Positions 6,860-61,245 of a DNA stretch of 64,000 bases are shown piece after piece (the stretch's first letter is position 1; the number at the start of each line of letters is the position of its first letter). Both the position numbers and the translations under genes were made by a program. The notes beneath the pieces are model-generated. The model saw nothing but the letters and a program-made list of their open reading frames with translations, was not told the origin of the DNA and ran no database searches. Source of the DNA: an uncultured Clostridia bacterium (GTDB taxonomy: Bacteria; Bacillota; Clostridia; Oscillospirales; CAG-272); assembly GCA_944381075.1 (NCBI GenBank), contig CALWJT010000005.1:65253-129252 (forward strand). The letters run 5' to 3'.

Positions 6860-7026
6860 AACCCCGAAACGTTTTATTTTTTCGACTGCGGTATCCGATA
6901 CCTCCCTTTTCCGATATGGGAGAAATCGGGGCCTCTGCGGCAAAAAACGAAGCTTCAAAAAATTTTTGATAAAAAAATGTGACCGAAGCGCAGGTCCATG
7001 CGTTTTACATACAGGAGGACAAAAAA

Positions 7027-57469: not shown

Positions 57470-58132
57470 ATGAAAAGAATAAGCAAAGCGATTCTCTTAC
57501 TTACGATAGCTGCCATCTTGATGGCAGGGCTTGCTTCCTGCTCTCTGACAGATACACTGCAAAGGCTATTTGTCGGGGCAATGGATGACGGTACGGAAAA
57601 TTTTGACATGGGCGTCATCGAGTCCGGCGTATATACAAGCGATTTCGCCGGAATGCAGTTTACGCTTCCTCAAGGCTGGGTATTTTATGACAGGGAAGAG
57701 CTGCTGGCGCTTTCCGGCCTTGACGAAAATGACGACGCGGACGCGCTGAAAAAGGAGATCCTTGAAAAAACCACGGTGTATGATATGTATGCGGTGAATC
57801 CCAGCACCGGCTCCAATATCATAATTATGTTTGAAAACATTAGGGTACAAGGGCTGGACCCGGAAGCATTCGACGTTCAGGACTATTCTGAGGCGCTGAC
57901 CAAAAATTTAAGCGGCCAAACGGAAATCGCATATGAAAAAACGAAGGAGAGGACCGTTGTACTTGGCGGGTATGAGTTTTTGTCAATTGAATTTAACGCG
58001 AATGCGGCTGCGTATTCCTATTCTATCTGTCAAAAGTATTTTATCCGACAGATAGGAGACTTTATGATGAGCATCATCGTGACAGGAAACGTGTCGCCGG
58101 AATCCTATTTTTCGGCTTTGGATGCGGCATAA
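57470..58132 (+). CDS. Lipoprotein, function unknown
   Basis: Signal peptide with lipobox LASCS. Confidence 0.7.
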   Translation: MKRISKAILLLTIAAILMAGLASCSLTDTLQRLFVGAMDDGTENFDMGVIESGVYTSDFAGMQFTLPQGWVFYDREELLALSGLDENDDADALKKEILEKTTVYDMYAVNPSTGSNIIIMFENIRVQGLDPEAFDVQDYSEALTKNLSGQTEIAYEKTKERTVVLGGYEFLSIEFNANAAAYSYSICQKYFIRQIGDFMMSIIVTGNVSPESYFSALDAA

Positions 58133-58170
58133 AGAGAAGCGCTCCCATCAAGGGAGCGCTTCTCTTTATG
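58131..58170. terminator. Bidirectional terminator
   Basis: AAAGAGAAGCGCTCCC-atcaa-GGGAGCGCTTCTCTTT (16 bp), between convergent genes. Confidence 0.9.
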
Positions 58171-58242
58171 CCAATATAGCCTGTGGATTGCCGTAATGGA
58201 AAATATTTTGCCTTTTTTATGAGCTGTGCCCTGTACAGATCC

Positions 58243-58560
58243 TTACGGCGCGCCTTCATCAAAAAATTTGCCTTTAAAAAAATTTTCATTGCCGAGCTTT
58301 TTTGCTGTGAGCCGAAACATCACACAGCCGTCGGGACATACGATATCCTTGCTGTATTGGCTGCTGCCTCCGATATTCGTGAGATCTCCGCCGCTTCTGA
58401 CGGCTTCCATAATAGGGAAGAGCACCATCATAAGCTTCGAGCAGATGCCGTGTCCGTCCTGATTGACAGGGCAGCCGTAGGTGCAGATGTACTTGTCCCC
58501 GATTTCCTCGCCGTTGCGGCAGTAGCGTTCCGTATGGGTGCCGCGGAGAAAGCCTGTCAC
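58243..58560 (-). CDS. TIGR04076-like small Cys-rich protein, apparently 5'-clipped
   Basis: CRNGEEIGDKY..GICSKL..SGG..IVCPDGCVMFRL pattern. The first canonical start is GTG at 58560. The family-like N-terminus (FTIEV) continues upstream without a start codon. Confidence 0.6.
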   Translation of the reverse strand: MTGFLRGTHTERYCRNGEEIGDKYICTYGCPVNQDGHGICSKLMMVLFPIMEAVRSGGDLTNIGGSSQYSKDIVCPDGCVMFRLTAKKLGNENFFKGKFFDEGAP

Positions 58561-58599
58561 TTCGATTGTGAAATATAGTGGGCTATACCTAATTAATTT

Positions 58600-59349
58600 T
58601 TAATCTTCATTAGGTAAAGGTTCTCCAACTTGTATCTTTAATTTATAACATCTACGTCTATATTCGTTATAAATTTGATCAAATAGGTGGGCTAAACGAT
58701 ATTCTCTGTCATTTTTTGTTTTTGCATCACGGAATAATGATAAGTATTTTTTGTTTTGCTCTAATTTAATGAAGTCTCTCATATAAATTCTTCGTATTTC
58801 TTTGTTAGTGCAAAGTCTGAAGTCTTTATCAGCGAGAAGTCTTTCTTCCAATTCATCATATGGATTTACAAAGGAATCATCTTCTTCGAAGTCATAAAAC
58901 TCAATTAATTCTTTCTCGTGTGTTTCTTGAAATTCTATCAAAGCAGAGATAGCATCTTTGAAGTCTTCGCCTAACCACACATCCTCAATAGTAGAGGCAA
59001 TAATAAAATTTTCAAAAGTAGCTACAAGAAATAAGCCTAACGGACGTAAAAAGTCGAATGCCTGCATTTTAGCATTATATGTATTCGCCCATTGTTTGCA
59101 GAAACAATATGCTTTTTCATTTTCAGTGTTTTCTTTAAGCATATCATCTGTAATTAAATATTCTTCTTTTTCATAAAATTTGTAGGAATAAAATATAGTT
59201 GAAATTTTATGCTGTTGACAAAATTCAACAAATTCTTCAACGGTGCAATCTAAAATCGCGTAATTGTTTGAAATGTTTAATTTTGCTTTGACAAAGTTAA
59301 TAGAATCGCAAATTTTCAATAACTCCTTATCTCTAATAATACCTTCCAT
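58600..59349 (-). CDS. Orphan acidic 249-aa protein encoded in AT-rich DNA
   Basis: Uninterrupted ORF with its own consensus promoter and a TAGGAG RBS. No motif recognised. Confidence 0.8.
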   Translation of the reverse strand: MEGIIRDKELLKICDSINFVKAKLNISNNYAILDCTVEEFVEFCQQHKISTIFYSYKFYEKEEYLITDDMLKENTENEKAYCFCKQWANTYNAKMQAFDFLRPLGLFLVATFENFIIASTIEDVWLGEDFKDAISALIEFQETHEKELIEFYDFEEDDSFVNPYDELEERLLADKDFRLCTNKEIRRIYMRDFIKLEQNKKYLSLFRDAKTKNDREYRLAHLFDQIYNEYRRRCYKLKIQVGEPLPNED

Positions 59350-59380
59350 AATTTTTAACTCCTATCTTACATTTATATTT

Positions 59381-59409
59381 ATTATATCACAATCATATGA
59401 GGTTAACAA
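59381..59409 (-). promoter_or_regulatory. Promoter TTGTTA-17-TATAAT for the orphan gene
   Basis: Minus-strand TTGTTA (59404-59409) and TATAAT (59381-59386). Confidence 0.65.
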
Positions 59410-59424
59410 GTGGATAAATCATAA

Positions 59425-59479
59425 AAAACAAATAATCCGAACGCTCCGCCGACTAAAGTCGGTTTGAGGTTCGGATTAT
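59425..59479 (-). terminator. Terminator of tRNA-Arg
   Basis: Minus strand AATCCGAAC...GTTCGGATT, with an inner CCGACT/AGTCGG hairpin, then ATTTGTTTTTT. Confidence 0.75.
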
Positions 59480-59486
59480 ACTCGTT

Positions 59487-59563
59487 TGGCGCGCCGGACA
59501 GGATTCGAACCCGCGACCCCCAGAATCGGAATCTGATGCTCTATCCAGCTGAGCTACCAGCGC
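59487..59563 (-). tRNA. tRNA-Arg (anticodon CCG), CCA encoded
   Basis: Hand-folded cloverleaf: acceptor GCGCTGG/CCGGCGC, D-arm GCTC/GAGC, anticodon loop TTCCGAT, T-loop TTCGAAT. The G-U pairs only work on the minus strand. Confidence 0.9.
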
Positions 59564-60639: not shown

Positions 60640-60887
60640 GGCTGTTTCCCCTCTGCTCTCCGAAGATTTGCCGCTTGGATTATTGCCGCTGAAAGAGCAG
60701 TCCTGCGGCATAGGCGCGTTTTAAAATTTCCGCCGCTTTTTTTATGCCGTGATGATATTATAGCATAGAAACGGGAAAAAAGCGCTGTTTTTTGAAAAAA
60801 AGATGAAATTTGTGAATATTATACAAAAAACAGGGGAAAATTTCTCTAAAGTTTTCTGCGGATATTTTGAAAAAGTTTGAAAAAATC

Positions 60888-60916
60888 TTGATTTTATCGC
60901 GAAAATACGATAAAAT
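60888..60916 (+). promoter_or_regulatory. Promoter TTGATT-17-TAAAAT of the S10 operon
   Basis: Read directly in an AT-rich tract. Confidence 0.6.
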
Positions 60917-61245
60917 AGAAAAGCTTGATATGCGAGGAAGCGGGAGGTTGCCGTAAAACGGGGAATTTCCGCAGAGTATGTCCGATAAACGGGCGACGGT
61001 TTCGTTCTGTGAACAGTGGCGTTCTGGATATTGCGCCGCGTGCGGCGTCAATCCGAAAAAGGGAATGCGACAGCCGGATCTTTCCGGTTTTTTCTTAGGG
61101 GCTTTGGAAACGCCCGGGATGGTGTTCACATCGAAACATGCGCTGTGAGCAGATTTCTCCGTCAAGATTTTAAATCTTATCTGTTGGAAGAATCCTCATG
61201 GCGCCGCCGACACTAAAAAAATTATATTCAAGGAGGCAAAATCAA
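60917..61245 (+). promoter_or_regulatory. Long (~330 nt) S10-operon leader with an internal terminator-like hairpin (61072-61094)
   Basis: AGCCGGA-tctt-TCCGGTT followed by TTTTCTT, about 150 nt upstream of rpsJ. Further hairpins, for example 61034-61047. Confidence 0.45.

What the first reader, a model, noticed from the sequence alone, without database searches (positions are those of the whole stretch)
58578..59425. ~850-bp AT-rich islet with a single orphan gene inserted next to tRNA-Arg(CCG)
Composition drops from ~60% GC (line 58441-58500, counted) to 23-33% GC (lines 58681-58740 and 59101-59160, counted). It recovers at the tRNA terminator.

The islet carries one 249-aa acidic protein with no motif I recognise. 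The gene brings its own low-GC-style signals: TTGTTA-17-TATAAT and a TAGGAG RBS.

It lies immediately 3' of a tRNA gene, the classic integration hotspot, and its other edge appears to have removed the start of the neighbouring gene. No integrase or other mobility gene accompanies it.

Single, self-promoted orphan genes in such spots are often immunity, anti-defence or abortive-infection factors.
Basis: partly seen in the sequence, partly recalled or inferred. Interest (0 to 1): 0.65.

Follow-up and report, generated by a model that had tools for sequence, protein, structure and literature searches.

The report
Strain-variable AT-rich single-gene islet beside tRNA-Arg
A 0.9-kb AT-rich cassette carrying one self-promoted gene lies directly after a tRNA-Arg gene in some strains of an uncultured gut Clostridia species and is missing from others. 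The gene is not an orphan: it belongs to an uncharacterised protein family found on plasmids, a plasmid-prophage and next to restriction or nuclease genes, so it is a plausible but unproven conflict (defence-type) gene.

Summary
**Observation: confirmed.** Window 58578-59425 is 28.9% GC against 55.1% for the whole window. It is the lowest 848-bp stretch of all 64 kb (about 5.9 SD below the mean). It holds one 249-aa acidic ORF (58600-59349, minus strand) with a TTGTTA-17-TGnTATAAT promoter and an AGGAG ribosome-binding site, directly 3' of tRNA-Arg(CCG).

**Acquired, not ancient.** Contigs with 99.4-99.5% identical flanks lack the islet. There, 44 bp of native terminator sit where the window has about 912 bp. 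A third haplotype carries the islet plus an intact neighbouring TIGR04076 gene. The window's loss of that gene's start is a 485-bp deletion at a 22-nt imperfect repeat, not the insertion edge itself. There is no integrase, no att repeat and no target duplication. Recombination anchored on the tRNA side is the likeliest route.

**Not an orphan.** 174 clusters (50% identity) match at E<=1e-3. All identifiable hosts are Bacillota. Contexts include a B. thuringiensis plasmid-prophage, an Exiguobacterium plasmid next to RadC, conjugative-element (ICE)-like contigs, and positions directly after an MmeI-type restriction enzyme and a CoiA-like nuclease.

**Function untested.** No Pfam, PHROG, PADLOC, NCBIfam or PDB match was found. 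A confident AlphaFold model (pLDDT 89) has no Foldseek match in PDB or BFVD.

The parts
59487..59563 (-). tRNA-Arg(CCG), 100% identical in all three alleles; the left (upstream) anchor of the islet
   Evidence: ARAGORN; Rfam tRNA 59.5 bits; marker BLAST across 26 contigs
58573..59484 (-). Strain-specific segment of the window (about 912 bp, 29.8% GC). It is absent from empty-site contigs, which carry 44 bp of native tRNA terminator instead.
   Evidence: Alignments to L099 and L100 stop at window 59485 and resume at 58572; three-way alignment A3; GC
59421..59479 (-). Islet-borne hairpin (ATAATCCGAAC...GTTCGGATTAT) plus T-run. It replaces the native terminator of the tRNA.
   Evidence: 11-nt perfect inverted repeat I4 in L001; sequence. 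It was not picked up by the simple terminator scan because the loop is long.
59381..59409 (-). Sigma-70-type promoter TTGTTA-17-TATAAT with extended -10 TG
   Evidence: 10 of 12 matches, TG present. This is a consensus match only; expression was not measured.
59360..59365 (-). Shine-Dalgarno TAGGAG, 9 nt before the ATG
   Evidence: Sequence
58600..59349 (-). 249-aa acidic two-domain protein, member of an uncharacterised Bacillota family. N-terminal alpha/beta domain 1-150, acidic linker 151-162, basic helical domain 163-236.
58551..58572 (-). 22-nt repeat TTCACAATCGAAGTGACAGGCT (copy 2 type). It is the junction of the 485-bp deletion relative to haplotype B.
   Evidence: Repeat family D2 in L001 (10778-10799 and 11263-11284, 82% identical); overlapping BLAST segments; alignment
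58243..58578 (-). 5'-truncated TIGR04076-family gene lacking its promoter, start and about 10 codons. It is in frame with the islet ORF, separated by one TAA.
   Evidence: NCBIfam TIGR04076 44.8 bits against cut-off 33, profile positions 6-89 of 91; full-length 119-120-aa versions in L001 and L099; frame check

Best explanation
**What it is.** The islet is a horizontally acquired, strain-variable, single-gene cassette: a replacement tRNA terminator, a strong promoter, a ribosome-binding site and one ORF. It sits immediately 3' of tRNA-Arg(CCG) in an uncultured human-gut Clostridia species.

**How it got there (inferred).**
- It was not placed by an integrase. It replaced 44 bp of native sequence.
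- It most likely entered and then spread within the species by recombination. The conserved tRNA/Amidohydro_2 side gave the homologous anchor, and the other junction formed at short or imperfect homology (homology-facilitated illegitimate recombination).
- In the window's haplotype this right-hand junction lies at a 22-nt imperfect repeat inside the neighbouring TIGR04076 gene. That removed 485 bp, including the gene's promoter and first 10 codons.

**What it encodes.**
- Shown: the 249-aa protein belongs to an uncharacterised family of two-domain, acidic, cytoplasmic proteins of about 230-260 aa. All hosts that can be identified are Bacillota.
- Shown: the family travels as a stand-alone gene with no conserved partner. 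It occurs on plasmids, on a plasmid-prophage, in conjugative-element (ICE)-like regions and beside restriction or nuclease genes.
- Shown: in four high-GC hosts it appears as an AT-rich islet.
- Inferred, weak: it acts by binding a partner rather than by catalysis, in a host-versus-mobile-element conflict. The most likely role is a constitutively expressed single-gene phage-exclusion or defence factor.

**Sub-confidences.**
- Acquired and strain-variable: 0.95
- Integrase-free recombination route: 0.6
- Conflict-related function of any kind: 0.6
- Specifically host defence: 0.35
For: **Composition.** 28.9% against 55.1% GC, the lowest stretch of the window. GC3 is 0.244 against about 0.65 in the flanks.

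**Presence/absence polymorphism.** Three alleles occur in conspecific metagenome contigs:
- Allele A, empty: L099, L100, L102-104, L106-108.
- Allele B, islet plus intact TIGR04076 gene: L001-L006, L110, L113, L117.
- Allele C, the window type: L101, L109, L111, L112, L115, L116, L118.

The window's flanks are 99.4-99.5% identical to empty-site contigs, right up to the tRNA end.

**Junctions.** The exact junctions show a 44-bp to 1048-bp replacement in B, with no target duplication and no repeat of the tRNA 3' end.

**Evidence for transfer within the species.**
- The window backbone is closer to empty strains (99.5%) than to haplotype B (98.2-98.6%), yet the two islet ORFs are 98.9% identical.
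- B's spacer is only 90-96% identical to the empty alleles, consistent with an imported recombination tract.

**Related species.** They keep Amidohydro_2 followed by tRNA-Arg, but what follows varies and none has the gene.

**Family.**
- 174 representatives; alignment A1 has conserved F53, Y54, N92, D99, W125, D174, F177, R186 and Y189.
- hhalign probability 99.5 and 99.1 to the Bacillus and Exiguobacterium plasmid proteins.

**Neighbourhoods.**
- MmeI-type restriction-modification enzyme 32 bp upstream.
- CoiA-like nuclease with a Zn ribbon, overlapping the start.
- DUF6094, ThiF, JAB and BrnT/BrnA.
- Resolvase and sortase.
- Opposite-strand insert beside ArpU, RecU and terS in pBGN_2.
- RadC and HNH on a MOBP plasmid.
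- IS3 transposase.
- No neighbour is shared between independent contexts.

**Composition in other hosts.** AT-rich relative to the host in L007 (30% against 52%), L013 (41% against 57%) and L123 (32% against 50%).

**Substitution pattern.** Between the two islet haplotypes there are 7 nonsynonymous and 1 synonymous substitutions, against 13 and 20 in three flanking genes (Fisher p=0.02).

**Promoter.**
Against: - No functional evidence of any kind exists.
- None of 54 members gives a consistent hit in PADLOC, Pfam, PHROGs or NCBIfam.
- No relative was found in 50,697 phage records or in IMG/VR.
- The protein has no recognisable effector or catalytic domain, which is unusual for single-gene defence proteins.
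- The neighbourhood sample is small (about 12 independent contexts) and was not compared with a background rate.
- The 7:1 substitution pattern is equally what relaxed constraint would give.
- The recombination route is inferred from junctions only. The order of events between haplotypes B and C cannot be resolved: deletion in situ, or transfer into an empty-type backbone.
Confidence: 0.55

Rival explanations
1. Orphan immunity or nuclease-inhibitor protein. The family neutralises a toxic nuclease (a polymorphic toxin or a restriction-type enzyme) by tight binding. The lone copy in this genome would protect against toxins delivered by competitors.
For: - The protein is small, acidic, cytoplasmic and non-enzymatic in appearance. 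Its conserved residues are mostly aromatic or hydrophobic.
- In the only two operon-like contexts the upstream gene encodes a nuclease-type protein: an MmeI-type enzyme with a 32-bp gap, and a CoiA-like nuclease whose stop overlaps the start.
- The distribution is patchy and strain-variable, and the nonsynonymous-to-synonymous ratio is elevated.
Against: - No match to SUKH, Imm or any Pfam immunity family.
- No LXG, RHS or other toxin gene next to it in the window or in most contexts.
- MmeI-type enzymes protect the host by their own methylase and are not known to need an inhibitor (established knowledge).
Confidence: 0.2
2. Anti-defence (for example anti-restriction) protein of mobile elements. 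The chromosomal copy would be a stranded remnant of a plasmid, conjugative element or phage accessory region.
For: - The N-terminal domain is acidic (pI 4.56) and the linker is acidic.
- It lies next to RadC on a MOBP plasmid.
- It lies beside DUF6094, ThiF and JAB genes of a conjugative-element-like contig.
- It lies on a plasmid-prophage.
- XRE-type helix-turn-helix genes lie adjacent in two independent contexts.
Against: - A lone chromosomal copy has kept an intact ORF and a strong promoter in two haplotypes across many samples, which argues for a benefit to the host rather than to an absent element.
- No ArdA, Ocr or other anti-restriction family match.
- No hit in phage collections.
- The helix-turn-helix genes are divergent or convergent, not in an Aca-style operon.
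Confidence: 0.15
3. Functionless passenger. The cassette is a neutral or decaying leftover of horizontal transfer with no current role in this host.
For: - pN/pS is 1.56 between the two haplotypes (7 nonsynonymous, 1 synonymous), against clearly purifying patterns in the flanking genes.
- The gene is dispensable, because empty-site strains exist.
- The event that fixed the window's haplotype also destroyed a neighbouring gene.
Against: - The ORF is intact in every contig that covers it in full; only two sequence types were seen, across contigs from more than ten different samples.
- The promoter and ribosome-binding site are intact.
- The family is conserved over its full length down to about 22% identity, with invariant residues.
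- Eight substitutions are too few to show loss of constraint.
Confidence: 0.1

Closest known systems
tRNA-linked genomic islands and islets mobilised by tyrosine integrases
   Same: It lies immediately 3' of a tRNA gene, has atypical low GC, is polymorphic for presence among strains, and carries accessory cargo. tRNA loci are frequent hotspots for defence-carrying elements in E. coli (PMC10121019).
   Different: There is no integrase, no direct repeat of the tRNA 3' end, no target duplication, and only 0.9-1.05 kb with one gene. Native sequence (44 bp) is replaced rather than displaced.
Phage morons (independent transcription units added to a genome; PMC3594210)
   Same: It is a self-contained unit with its own promoter and ribosome-binding site and a composition unlike its surroundings. 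A family member sits as an opposite-strand insert beside ArpU, RecU and terS in the B. thuringiensis plasmid-prophage pBGN_2.
   Different: In the window there is no prophage at all. No convincing terminator follows the ORF, only an 11-nt AT-rich inverted repeat.
Homology-facilitated illegitimate recombination (PMC3240628)
   Same: One end lies in highly conserved sequence (the tRNA and Amidohydro_2 side). The other junction is at a short imperfect repeat, with loss of recipient DNA. The backbone matches empty-site strains while the cargo matches another haplotype.
   Different: This is inferred from sequence comparison only. Neither competence nor the donor is known. A simple in-situ deletion in haplotype B followed by flank homogenisation would give the same structure.
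Single-gene abortive-infection or superinfection-exclusion genes of low-GC Gram-positive plasmids and prophages
   Same: It is a lone AT-rich gene with its own promoter, plasmid- or prophage-borne in relatives, lying next to restriction-modification genes in some contexts.
   Different: No sequence match to any Abi or other PADLOC model, no recognisable effector domain, and no phenotype data.

Membership tests
Integrase-mobilised tRNA-linked genomic island | Insertion at the 3' end of a tRNA gene, with presence/absence polymorphism and atypical composition | tested here: met
Integrase-mobilised tRNA-linked genomic island | Site-specific recombinase (integrase) gene within the element | tested here: not met
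   The 912-bp segment holds one ORF with no recombinase similarity. The flanking genes are ribosomal and metabolic.
Integrase-mobilised tRNA-linked genomic island | Flanking direct repeats (attL/attR) that duplicate the tRNA 3' end | tested here: not met
   The repeat search in L001 9700-11400 finds no copy of the tRNA 3' end. The junctions show replacement of 44 bp.
Moron (autonomous transcription unit in a prophage) | Own promoter and own terminator around a single gene | tested here: inconclusive
   The promoter consensus match is strong. No canonical terminator follows the ORF. Transcription was not measured.
Moron (autonomous transcription unit in a prophage) | Located between genes of a prophage | tested here: not met
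   There are no phage genes in the window flanks. The feature is met only for the distant homologue in pBGN_2.
Known anti-phage defence families (PADLOC-DB 2.0) | Significant match to a defence-protein HMM | tested here: not met
   0 families for the query. There is no family shared among the 54 members.
Curated protein families (Pfam-A, NCBIfam, PHROGs) | Match above the curated threshold | tested here: not met
   The best is phrog_13343 at E=0.02, hit by the query only (no other member of A1).
Polymorphic-toxin immunity proteins (SUKH, Imm families) | Sequence or fold match to a known immunity family, and position directly downstream of a toxin gene | tested here: not met
   No Pfam match. 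No Foldseek match in the PDB at E<=1e-3. No toxin gene upstream in the window. Two relatives follow nuclease-type genes, which is suggestive only.
DNA-mimic anti-restriction proteins (ArdA, Ocr) | Sequence or fold match; extreme negative charge along the whole protein | tested here: not met
   No Pfam or PDB match. The pI is 4.82 overall, but the C-terminal domain is basic at pI 8.94.
TIGR04076 family (the neighbouring gene, not the islet gene) | NCBIfam TIGR04076 score above cut-off | tested here: met
   44.8 bits against 33, profile positions 6-89 of 91. The gene is N-terminally truncated compared with the 119-120-aa versions in L001 and L099.

The most novel reading that the evidence does not exclude
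The 249-aa protein represents a new protein family whose confidently predicted two-domain structure has no counterpart in the PDB or in predicted viral structures. This family would be a previously unrecognised single-protein phage-defence (or counter-defence) module of Bacillota. It would spread as a bare promoter-plus-gene cassette without any mobility gene of its own, by recombination at conserved anchors such as tRNA genes.
Probability: 0.3. Interest if true: 0.65.

Novelty: new member of a known kind. Interest (0 to 1): 0.4.

Why it matters
- **A clean natural example of integrase-free gain.** Empty, filled and filled-plus-deleted alleles all occur in one uncultured gut species. They show how a single accessory gene can be gained at a tRNA locus without an integrase, and how that gain can inactivate a neighbouring gene.
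- **A candidate family to test.** The work defines a compact, uncharacterised Bacillota protein family of at least 174 clusters. It has a confident structural model, no known fold relative in the libraries searched, and neighbourhoods typical of conflict genes.
- **A ready test system.** The homologue on B. thuringiensis HD682 plasmid pBGN_2 offers a culturable system for defence or anti-defence screens.
- **If no conflict role is found,** the finding is an ordinary strain-variable islet.

Tried and rejected
**Family and structure searches that found nothing**
- Pfam, PADLOC, PHROGs and NCBIfam on the query and on all 54 aligned members: no consistent family.
- PDB by profile: nothing below E=0.3.
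- Foldseek of the pLDDT-89 model against PDB and BFVD: no hit at E<=1e-3.
- Pfam on the longer family members with an N-terminal extension of about 115-135 aa (P0051, P0111, P0114, P0141): no domain.

**Collection searches**
- tblastn of the query against phage and plasmid records: nothing.
- tblastn with distant members against phages: nothing. Against plasmids, the distant members did find the Bacillus and Exiguobacterium homologues.
- IMG/VR scan with alignment A2: 45 pattern matches, none a relative.
With the narrower alignment A4, the metagenome scan gave only 7 loci.

**Ideas tested and dropped**
- A conserved partner gene: all-against-all BLASTP of 20 neighbouring proteins found only one pair, the helix-turn-helix proteins of L013 and L124, which come from the same element. 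The two 365-aa neighbours in L120 and L132 are unrelated.
- A donor for the islet flanks: no DNA similarity outside the ORF to any other locus.
- 'Ancient resident AT-rich gene': rejected because of the empty-site alleles.
- 'ORF is a chance reading frame in AT-rich DNA': rejected because of full-length homologues down to E=2.6e-65.
Full report
**1.

Composition:
- The window is 55.1% GC. Positions 58578-59425 are 28.9% GC.
- This is the lowest of all 848-bp windows (mean 0.551, sd 0.045, so about 5.9 sd below the mean).

Content:
- The stretch contains one ORF, 58600..59349 on the minus strand, of 249 aa.
- The protein is acidic: pI 4.82, with 50 D+E against 35 K+R.
- GC3 is 0.244, against 0.64-0.67 in the flanking genes.
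- Upstream lie TTGTTA-17-TATAAT with an extended -10 TG (10 of 12 matches) and TAGGAG 9 nt before the ATG.
- tRNA-Arg(CCG) is at 59487..59563 on the minus strand.
- Nothing resembling a mobility gene lies within about 10 kb. One side carries the S10 ribosomal operon (with its Rfam leader at 60926-60996), a TSCPD gene and an Amidohydro_2 gene. The other side carries a TIGR04076-family gene, a 220-aa putative lipoprotein (inferred from its N-terminal sequence only), an aminotransferase and glycoside hydrolases.

**2. The islet is strain-variable: three alleles in one species.**

I looked up the islet protein and the exact flanking proteins in public assemblies. This returned 26 loci from metagenome contigs of the same species, three pairs of which re-sample the same contig. 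Marker BLAST sorts them into three alleles:
- **Allele A (empty):** L099, L100, L102-104 and L106-108. The order is Amidohydro_2, tRNA-Arg, a 44-bp native terminator (AAAAGGGCCAACGTTTTAGTTGGCCTTTTTCATCCTTTATGCGT), a spacer of about 310 bp, and a full-length 119-aa TIGR04076 gene.
- **Allele B:** L001-L006, L110, L113 and L117. The 44 bp are replaced by 1048 bp: a different, longer hairpin terminator, the promoter, the ORF, and about 160 bp of ordinary-GC sequence. The same spacer and an intact 120-aa TIGR04076 gene follow.
- **Allele C (the window):** L101, L109, L111, L112, L115, L116 and L118. It has the islet, but the 485 bp corresponding to L001 10778-11262 are missing. The ORF is therefore followed directly by codon 11 onward of TIGR04076.

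The deletion end-points are the two copies of a 22-nt imperfect direct repeat, TTC(G/A)CAATCGAAG...CGGGCT, 82% identical.

The window's flanks are 99.4-99.5% identical to the empty-site contigs, right up to the base after the tRNA. The polymorphism is therefore within one species.

At genus level, the nearest genomes in the GTDB species set are only 74-76% identical in Amidohydro_2. All keep Amidohydro_2 followed by tRNA-Arg(CCG), and each has a short hairpin terminator, as allele A does. What comes next differs and none has the islet gene:
- L020: the putative lipoprotein gene follows directly.
- L019 and L022: a Cys-rich 160-aa ORF follows (ORFs listed for L019 only; L022 is placed with it from its similar sequence downstream of the tRNA).
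- L021: the fucosidase gene follows.

The empty state is therefore most parsimoniously ancestral, and the 'ancient resident' alternative is rejected.

**3. How it got there (inference).**

What the junctions show:
- There is no integrase.
- There is no repeat of the tRNA 3' end and no target-site duplication.
- Native sequence is replaced rather than split.

Two further facts point to recombination rather than site-specific integration:
- Allele B's spacer is only 90-96% identical to the empty alleles, although the surrounding genes are 98-99% identical. This is what an imported tract would look like.
- The window's backbone resembles the empty strains (99.5%) more than allele B strains (98.2-98.6%), while its islet ORF is 98.9% identical to B's.

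The simplest account is that the cassette moved from a B-type donor into an A-type backbone. The homologous exchange would lie on the tRNA/Amidohydro_2 side, and the illegitimate junction at the 22-nt repeat. This is homology-facilitated illegitimate recombination as defined in PMC3240628.

An in-situ deletion in a B-type genome, followed by homogenisation of the flanks, cannot be excluded.

It was not, however, a property of the original insertion.

**4. The gene is not an orphan.**

Size of the family:
- The word-indexed search found only three relatives (97%, 54% and 42% identity).
- The exhaustive HMMER search of 1.84 billion cluster representatives found 174 at E<=1e-3, 31 at E<=1e-10 and 15 at E<=1e-30. 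Nearly all are 225-260 aa and aligned end to end.

Sequence features:
- A 54-member alignment has F177 and R186 invariant.
- F53, Y54, N92, D99, W125, D174 and Y189 are at least 90% conserved.
- The motifs are FYxYxYYD, DFxxP and DxxFxxCTNxxxRxxY.

Predicted structure:
- AlphaFold2 with this alignment gives pLDDT 89 and pTM 0.61.
- The N-terminal alpha/beta domain covers residues 1-150 (pI 4.56).
- A disordered acidic linker covers residues 151-162.
- A basic helical domain covers residues 163-236 (pI 8.94).

Searches without a match:
- Foldseek finds nothing at E<=1e-3 in the PDB or in BFVD.
- A PDB profile search finds nothing.
- No member gives a consistent hit in Pfam, PHROGs, PADLOC or NCBIfam.
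- AlphaFold DB was not available, so 'new fold' is not established.

**5. Where the family lives.**

| Context (about 12 independent) | Locus |
|---|---|
| AT-rich 1.5-kb islet with a divergent XRE-type helix-turn-helix gene, between housekeeping genes | L007-012 (gene 30% GC, host 52%) |
| Conjugative-element (ICE)-like contig with DUF6094, ThiF, a JAB-like gene, a convergent helix-turn-helix gene and BrnT/BrnA | L013-018, L124 (41% against 57%) |
| 32 bp downstream of an MmeI-type restriction-modification enzyme | L120, L121 |
| Overlapping the stop codon of a CoiA-like nuclease with a topoisomerase-type Zn ribbon | L127 |
| Beside a resolvase and a sortase | L122 |
| Lone AT-rich gene near a glycosyltransferase family 28 (murG-like) gene | L123 (32% against 50%) |
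| Opposite-strand insert beside ArpU, RecU and terS on B. thuringiensis HD682 plasmid-prophage pBGN_2 (WP_042510724.1) | L130 |
| Between RadC and an HNH gene on an Exiguobacterium MOBP plasmid | L131 |
| Next to an IS3 transposase in a Peribacillus chromosome | L132 |
| Downstream of a gene whose translation looks like an OmpR-type response regulator (read from the sequence, not tested by any search) | L125, L126 |
| Beside unknown small ORFs | L119, L134 |

Patterns across contexts:
- No neighbour recurs between independent contexts, so the protein looks like a stand-alone module.
- In low-GC hosts its GC is equal to the host's or only modestly lower (0-7 points). In the four high-GC hosts it stands out as AT-rich. 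This fits repeated import from low-GC Bacillota.
- It was not found in 50,697 phage records or in IMG/VR.

**6. What it probably does.**

Nothing here is a functional test. Several features place the gene among host-versus-mobile-element conflict genes:
- It is strain-variable.
- It carries a strong constitutive-type promoter.
- It is carried on plasmids, a plasmid-prophage and conjugative-element (ICE)-like DNA.
- It lies next to restriction or nuclease genes.
- It lacks catalytic-looking conserved residues.
- The two islet haplotypes differ by 7 nonsynonymous and 1 synonymous substitutions. Three flanking genes show 13 and 20 (Fisher p=0.02).

A lone chromosomal copy has stayed intact in two haplotypes across many samples. 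I therefore rank the readings as follows:

| Reading | Probability |
|---|---|
| Host-beneficial exclusion or defence factor | about 0.35 |
| Orphan immunity or nuclease inhibitor (suggested by the two nuclease-adjacent operon-like contexts) | about 0.2 |
| Anti-defence remnant | about 0.15 |
| Functionless passenger | about 0.1 |
| Other | remainder |

The 7:1 substitution pattern is equally compatible with relaxed constraint.

**7. Comparison with known things.**

- The locus behaves like a tRNA-linked genomic islet but fails two defining tests: integrase and att repeats.
- It looks like a moron (PMC3594210) but is not in a prophage and lacks a clear terminator.
- tRNA loci are common hotspots for defence-carrying elements in E. 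coli. Some highly variable hotspots show no identifiable means of mobilisation (PMC10121019), which is the nearest described parallel.

**8. Verdict.**

'Orphan' is wrong. The truncation of the neighbour is a secondary or concomitant deletion. The function is open. As a kind of thing it is familiar: a small strain-variable accessory islet at a tRNA gene. The uncharacterised family with a confident model and no known relatives is the part worth following up.

Noticed in passing
window 58243-59349 (-): In the window's haplotype the truncated TIGR04076 reading frame is in frame with the islet ORF, separated only by the TAA stop (...PNED*KLIRYSPLYFTIEVTGFLRG...). Stop-codon read-through would give a fusion protein. 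The chance expectation for being in frame is 1 in 3.
   Followed up: partly
L001 10778-10799 and 11263-11284: Copy 1 of the 22-nt repeat, at the right edge of the AT-rich part, translates in frame as FAIEAAGY. The TIGR04076 codons at copy 2 give FTIEVTGF. Copy 1 may be a relic of a TIGR04076-like gene from the donor locus, or a chance match.
   Followed up: partly
L001 10912-11232 compared with L099 4945-5254 and L100 4491-4800: The spacer between the islet and the TIGR04076 gene in haplotype B is only 90.4% (L099) or 95.8% (L100) identical to the empty alleles, although surrounding genes are 98-99% identical. This is a local divergence peak next to the insert.
   Followed up: partly
L019 and L022 (after the tRNA at 6892/6893), L020, L021: The position after tRNA-Arg(CCG) is variable between related species. 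L019 and L022 carry a Cys-rich 160-aa ORF (ORFs listed for L019 only; L022 is placed with it from its similar sequence downstream of the tRNA), L020 carries nothing, and L021 runs straight into the fucosidase gene. The TIGR04076 gene itself is absent from these relatives.
   Followed up: partly
window 60926-60996 (+): Rfam S10-Clostridia ribosomal-protein leader (37.6 bits, gathering score 35.1) upstream of the S10 operon. The low-GC dip at about 60700-60900 is this intergenic region.
   Followed up: no
window 58123-58174: A perfect GC-rich hairpin (AAAGAGAAGCGCTCCC...GGGAGCGCTTCTCTTT) lies between the convergent 220-aa putative lipoprotein gene and the TIGR04076 gene. It is probably a bidirectional terminator. 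It gives spurious sub-threshold hits to microRNA families in Rfam.
   Followed up: no
proteins P0051, P0111, P0114, P0141: A subfamily of about 345 aa carries an extra N-terminal domain of about 115-135 aa, conserved among these four, with no Pfam match.
   Followed up: partly
L120 3458-5398 (-): Next to the pair formed by the MmeI-type enzyme and the family member lie a radical-SAM protein and a 365-aa protein with a weak GMT-like winged-helix hit. This may be a further defence-island component.
   Followed up: no
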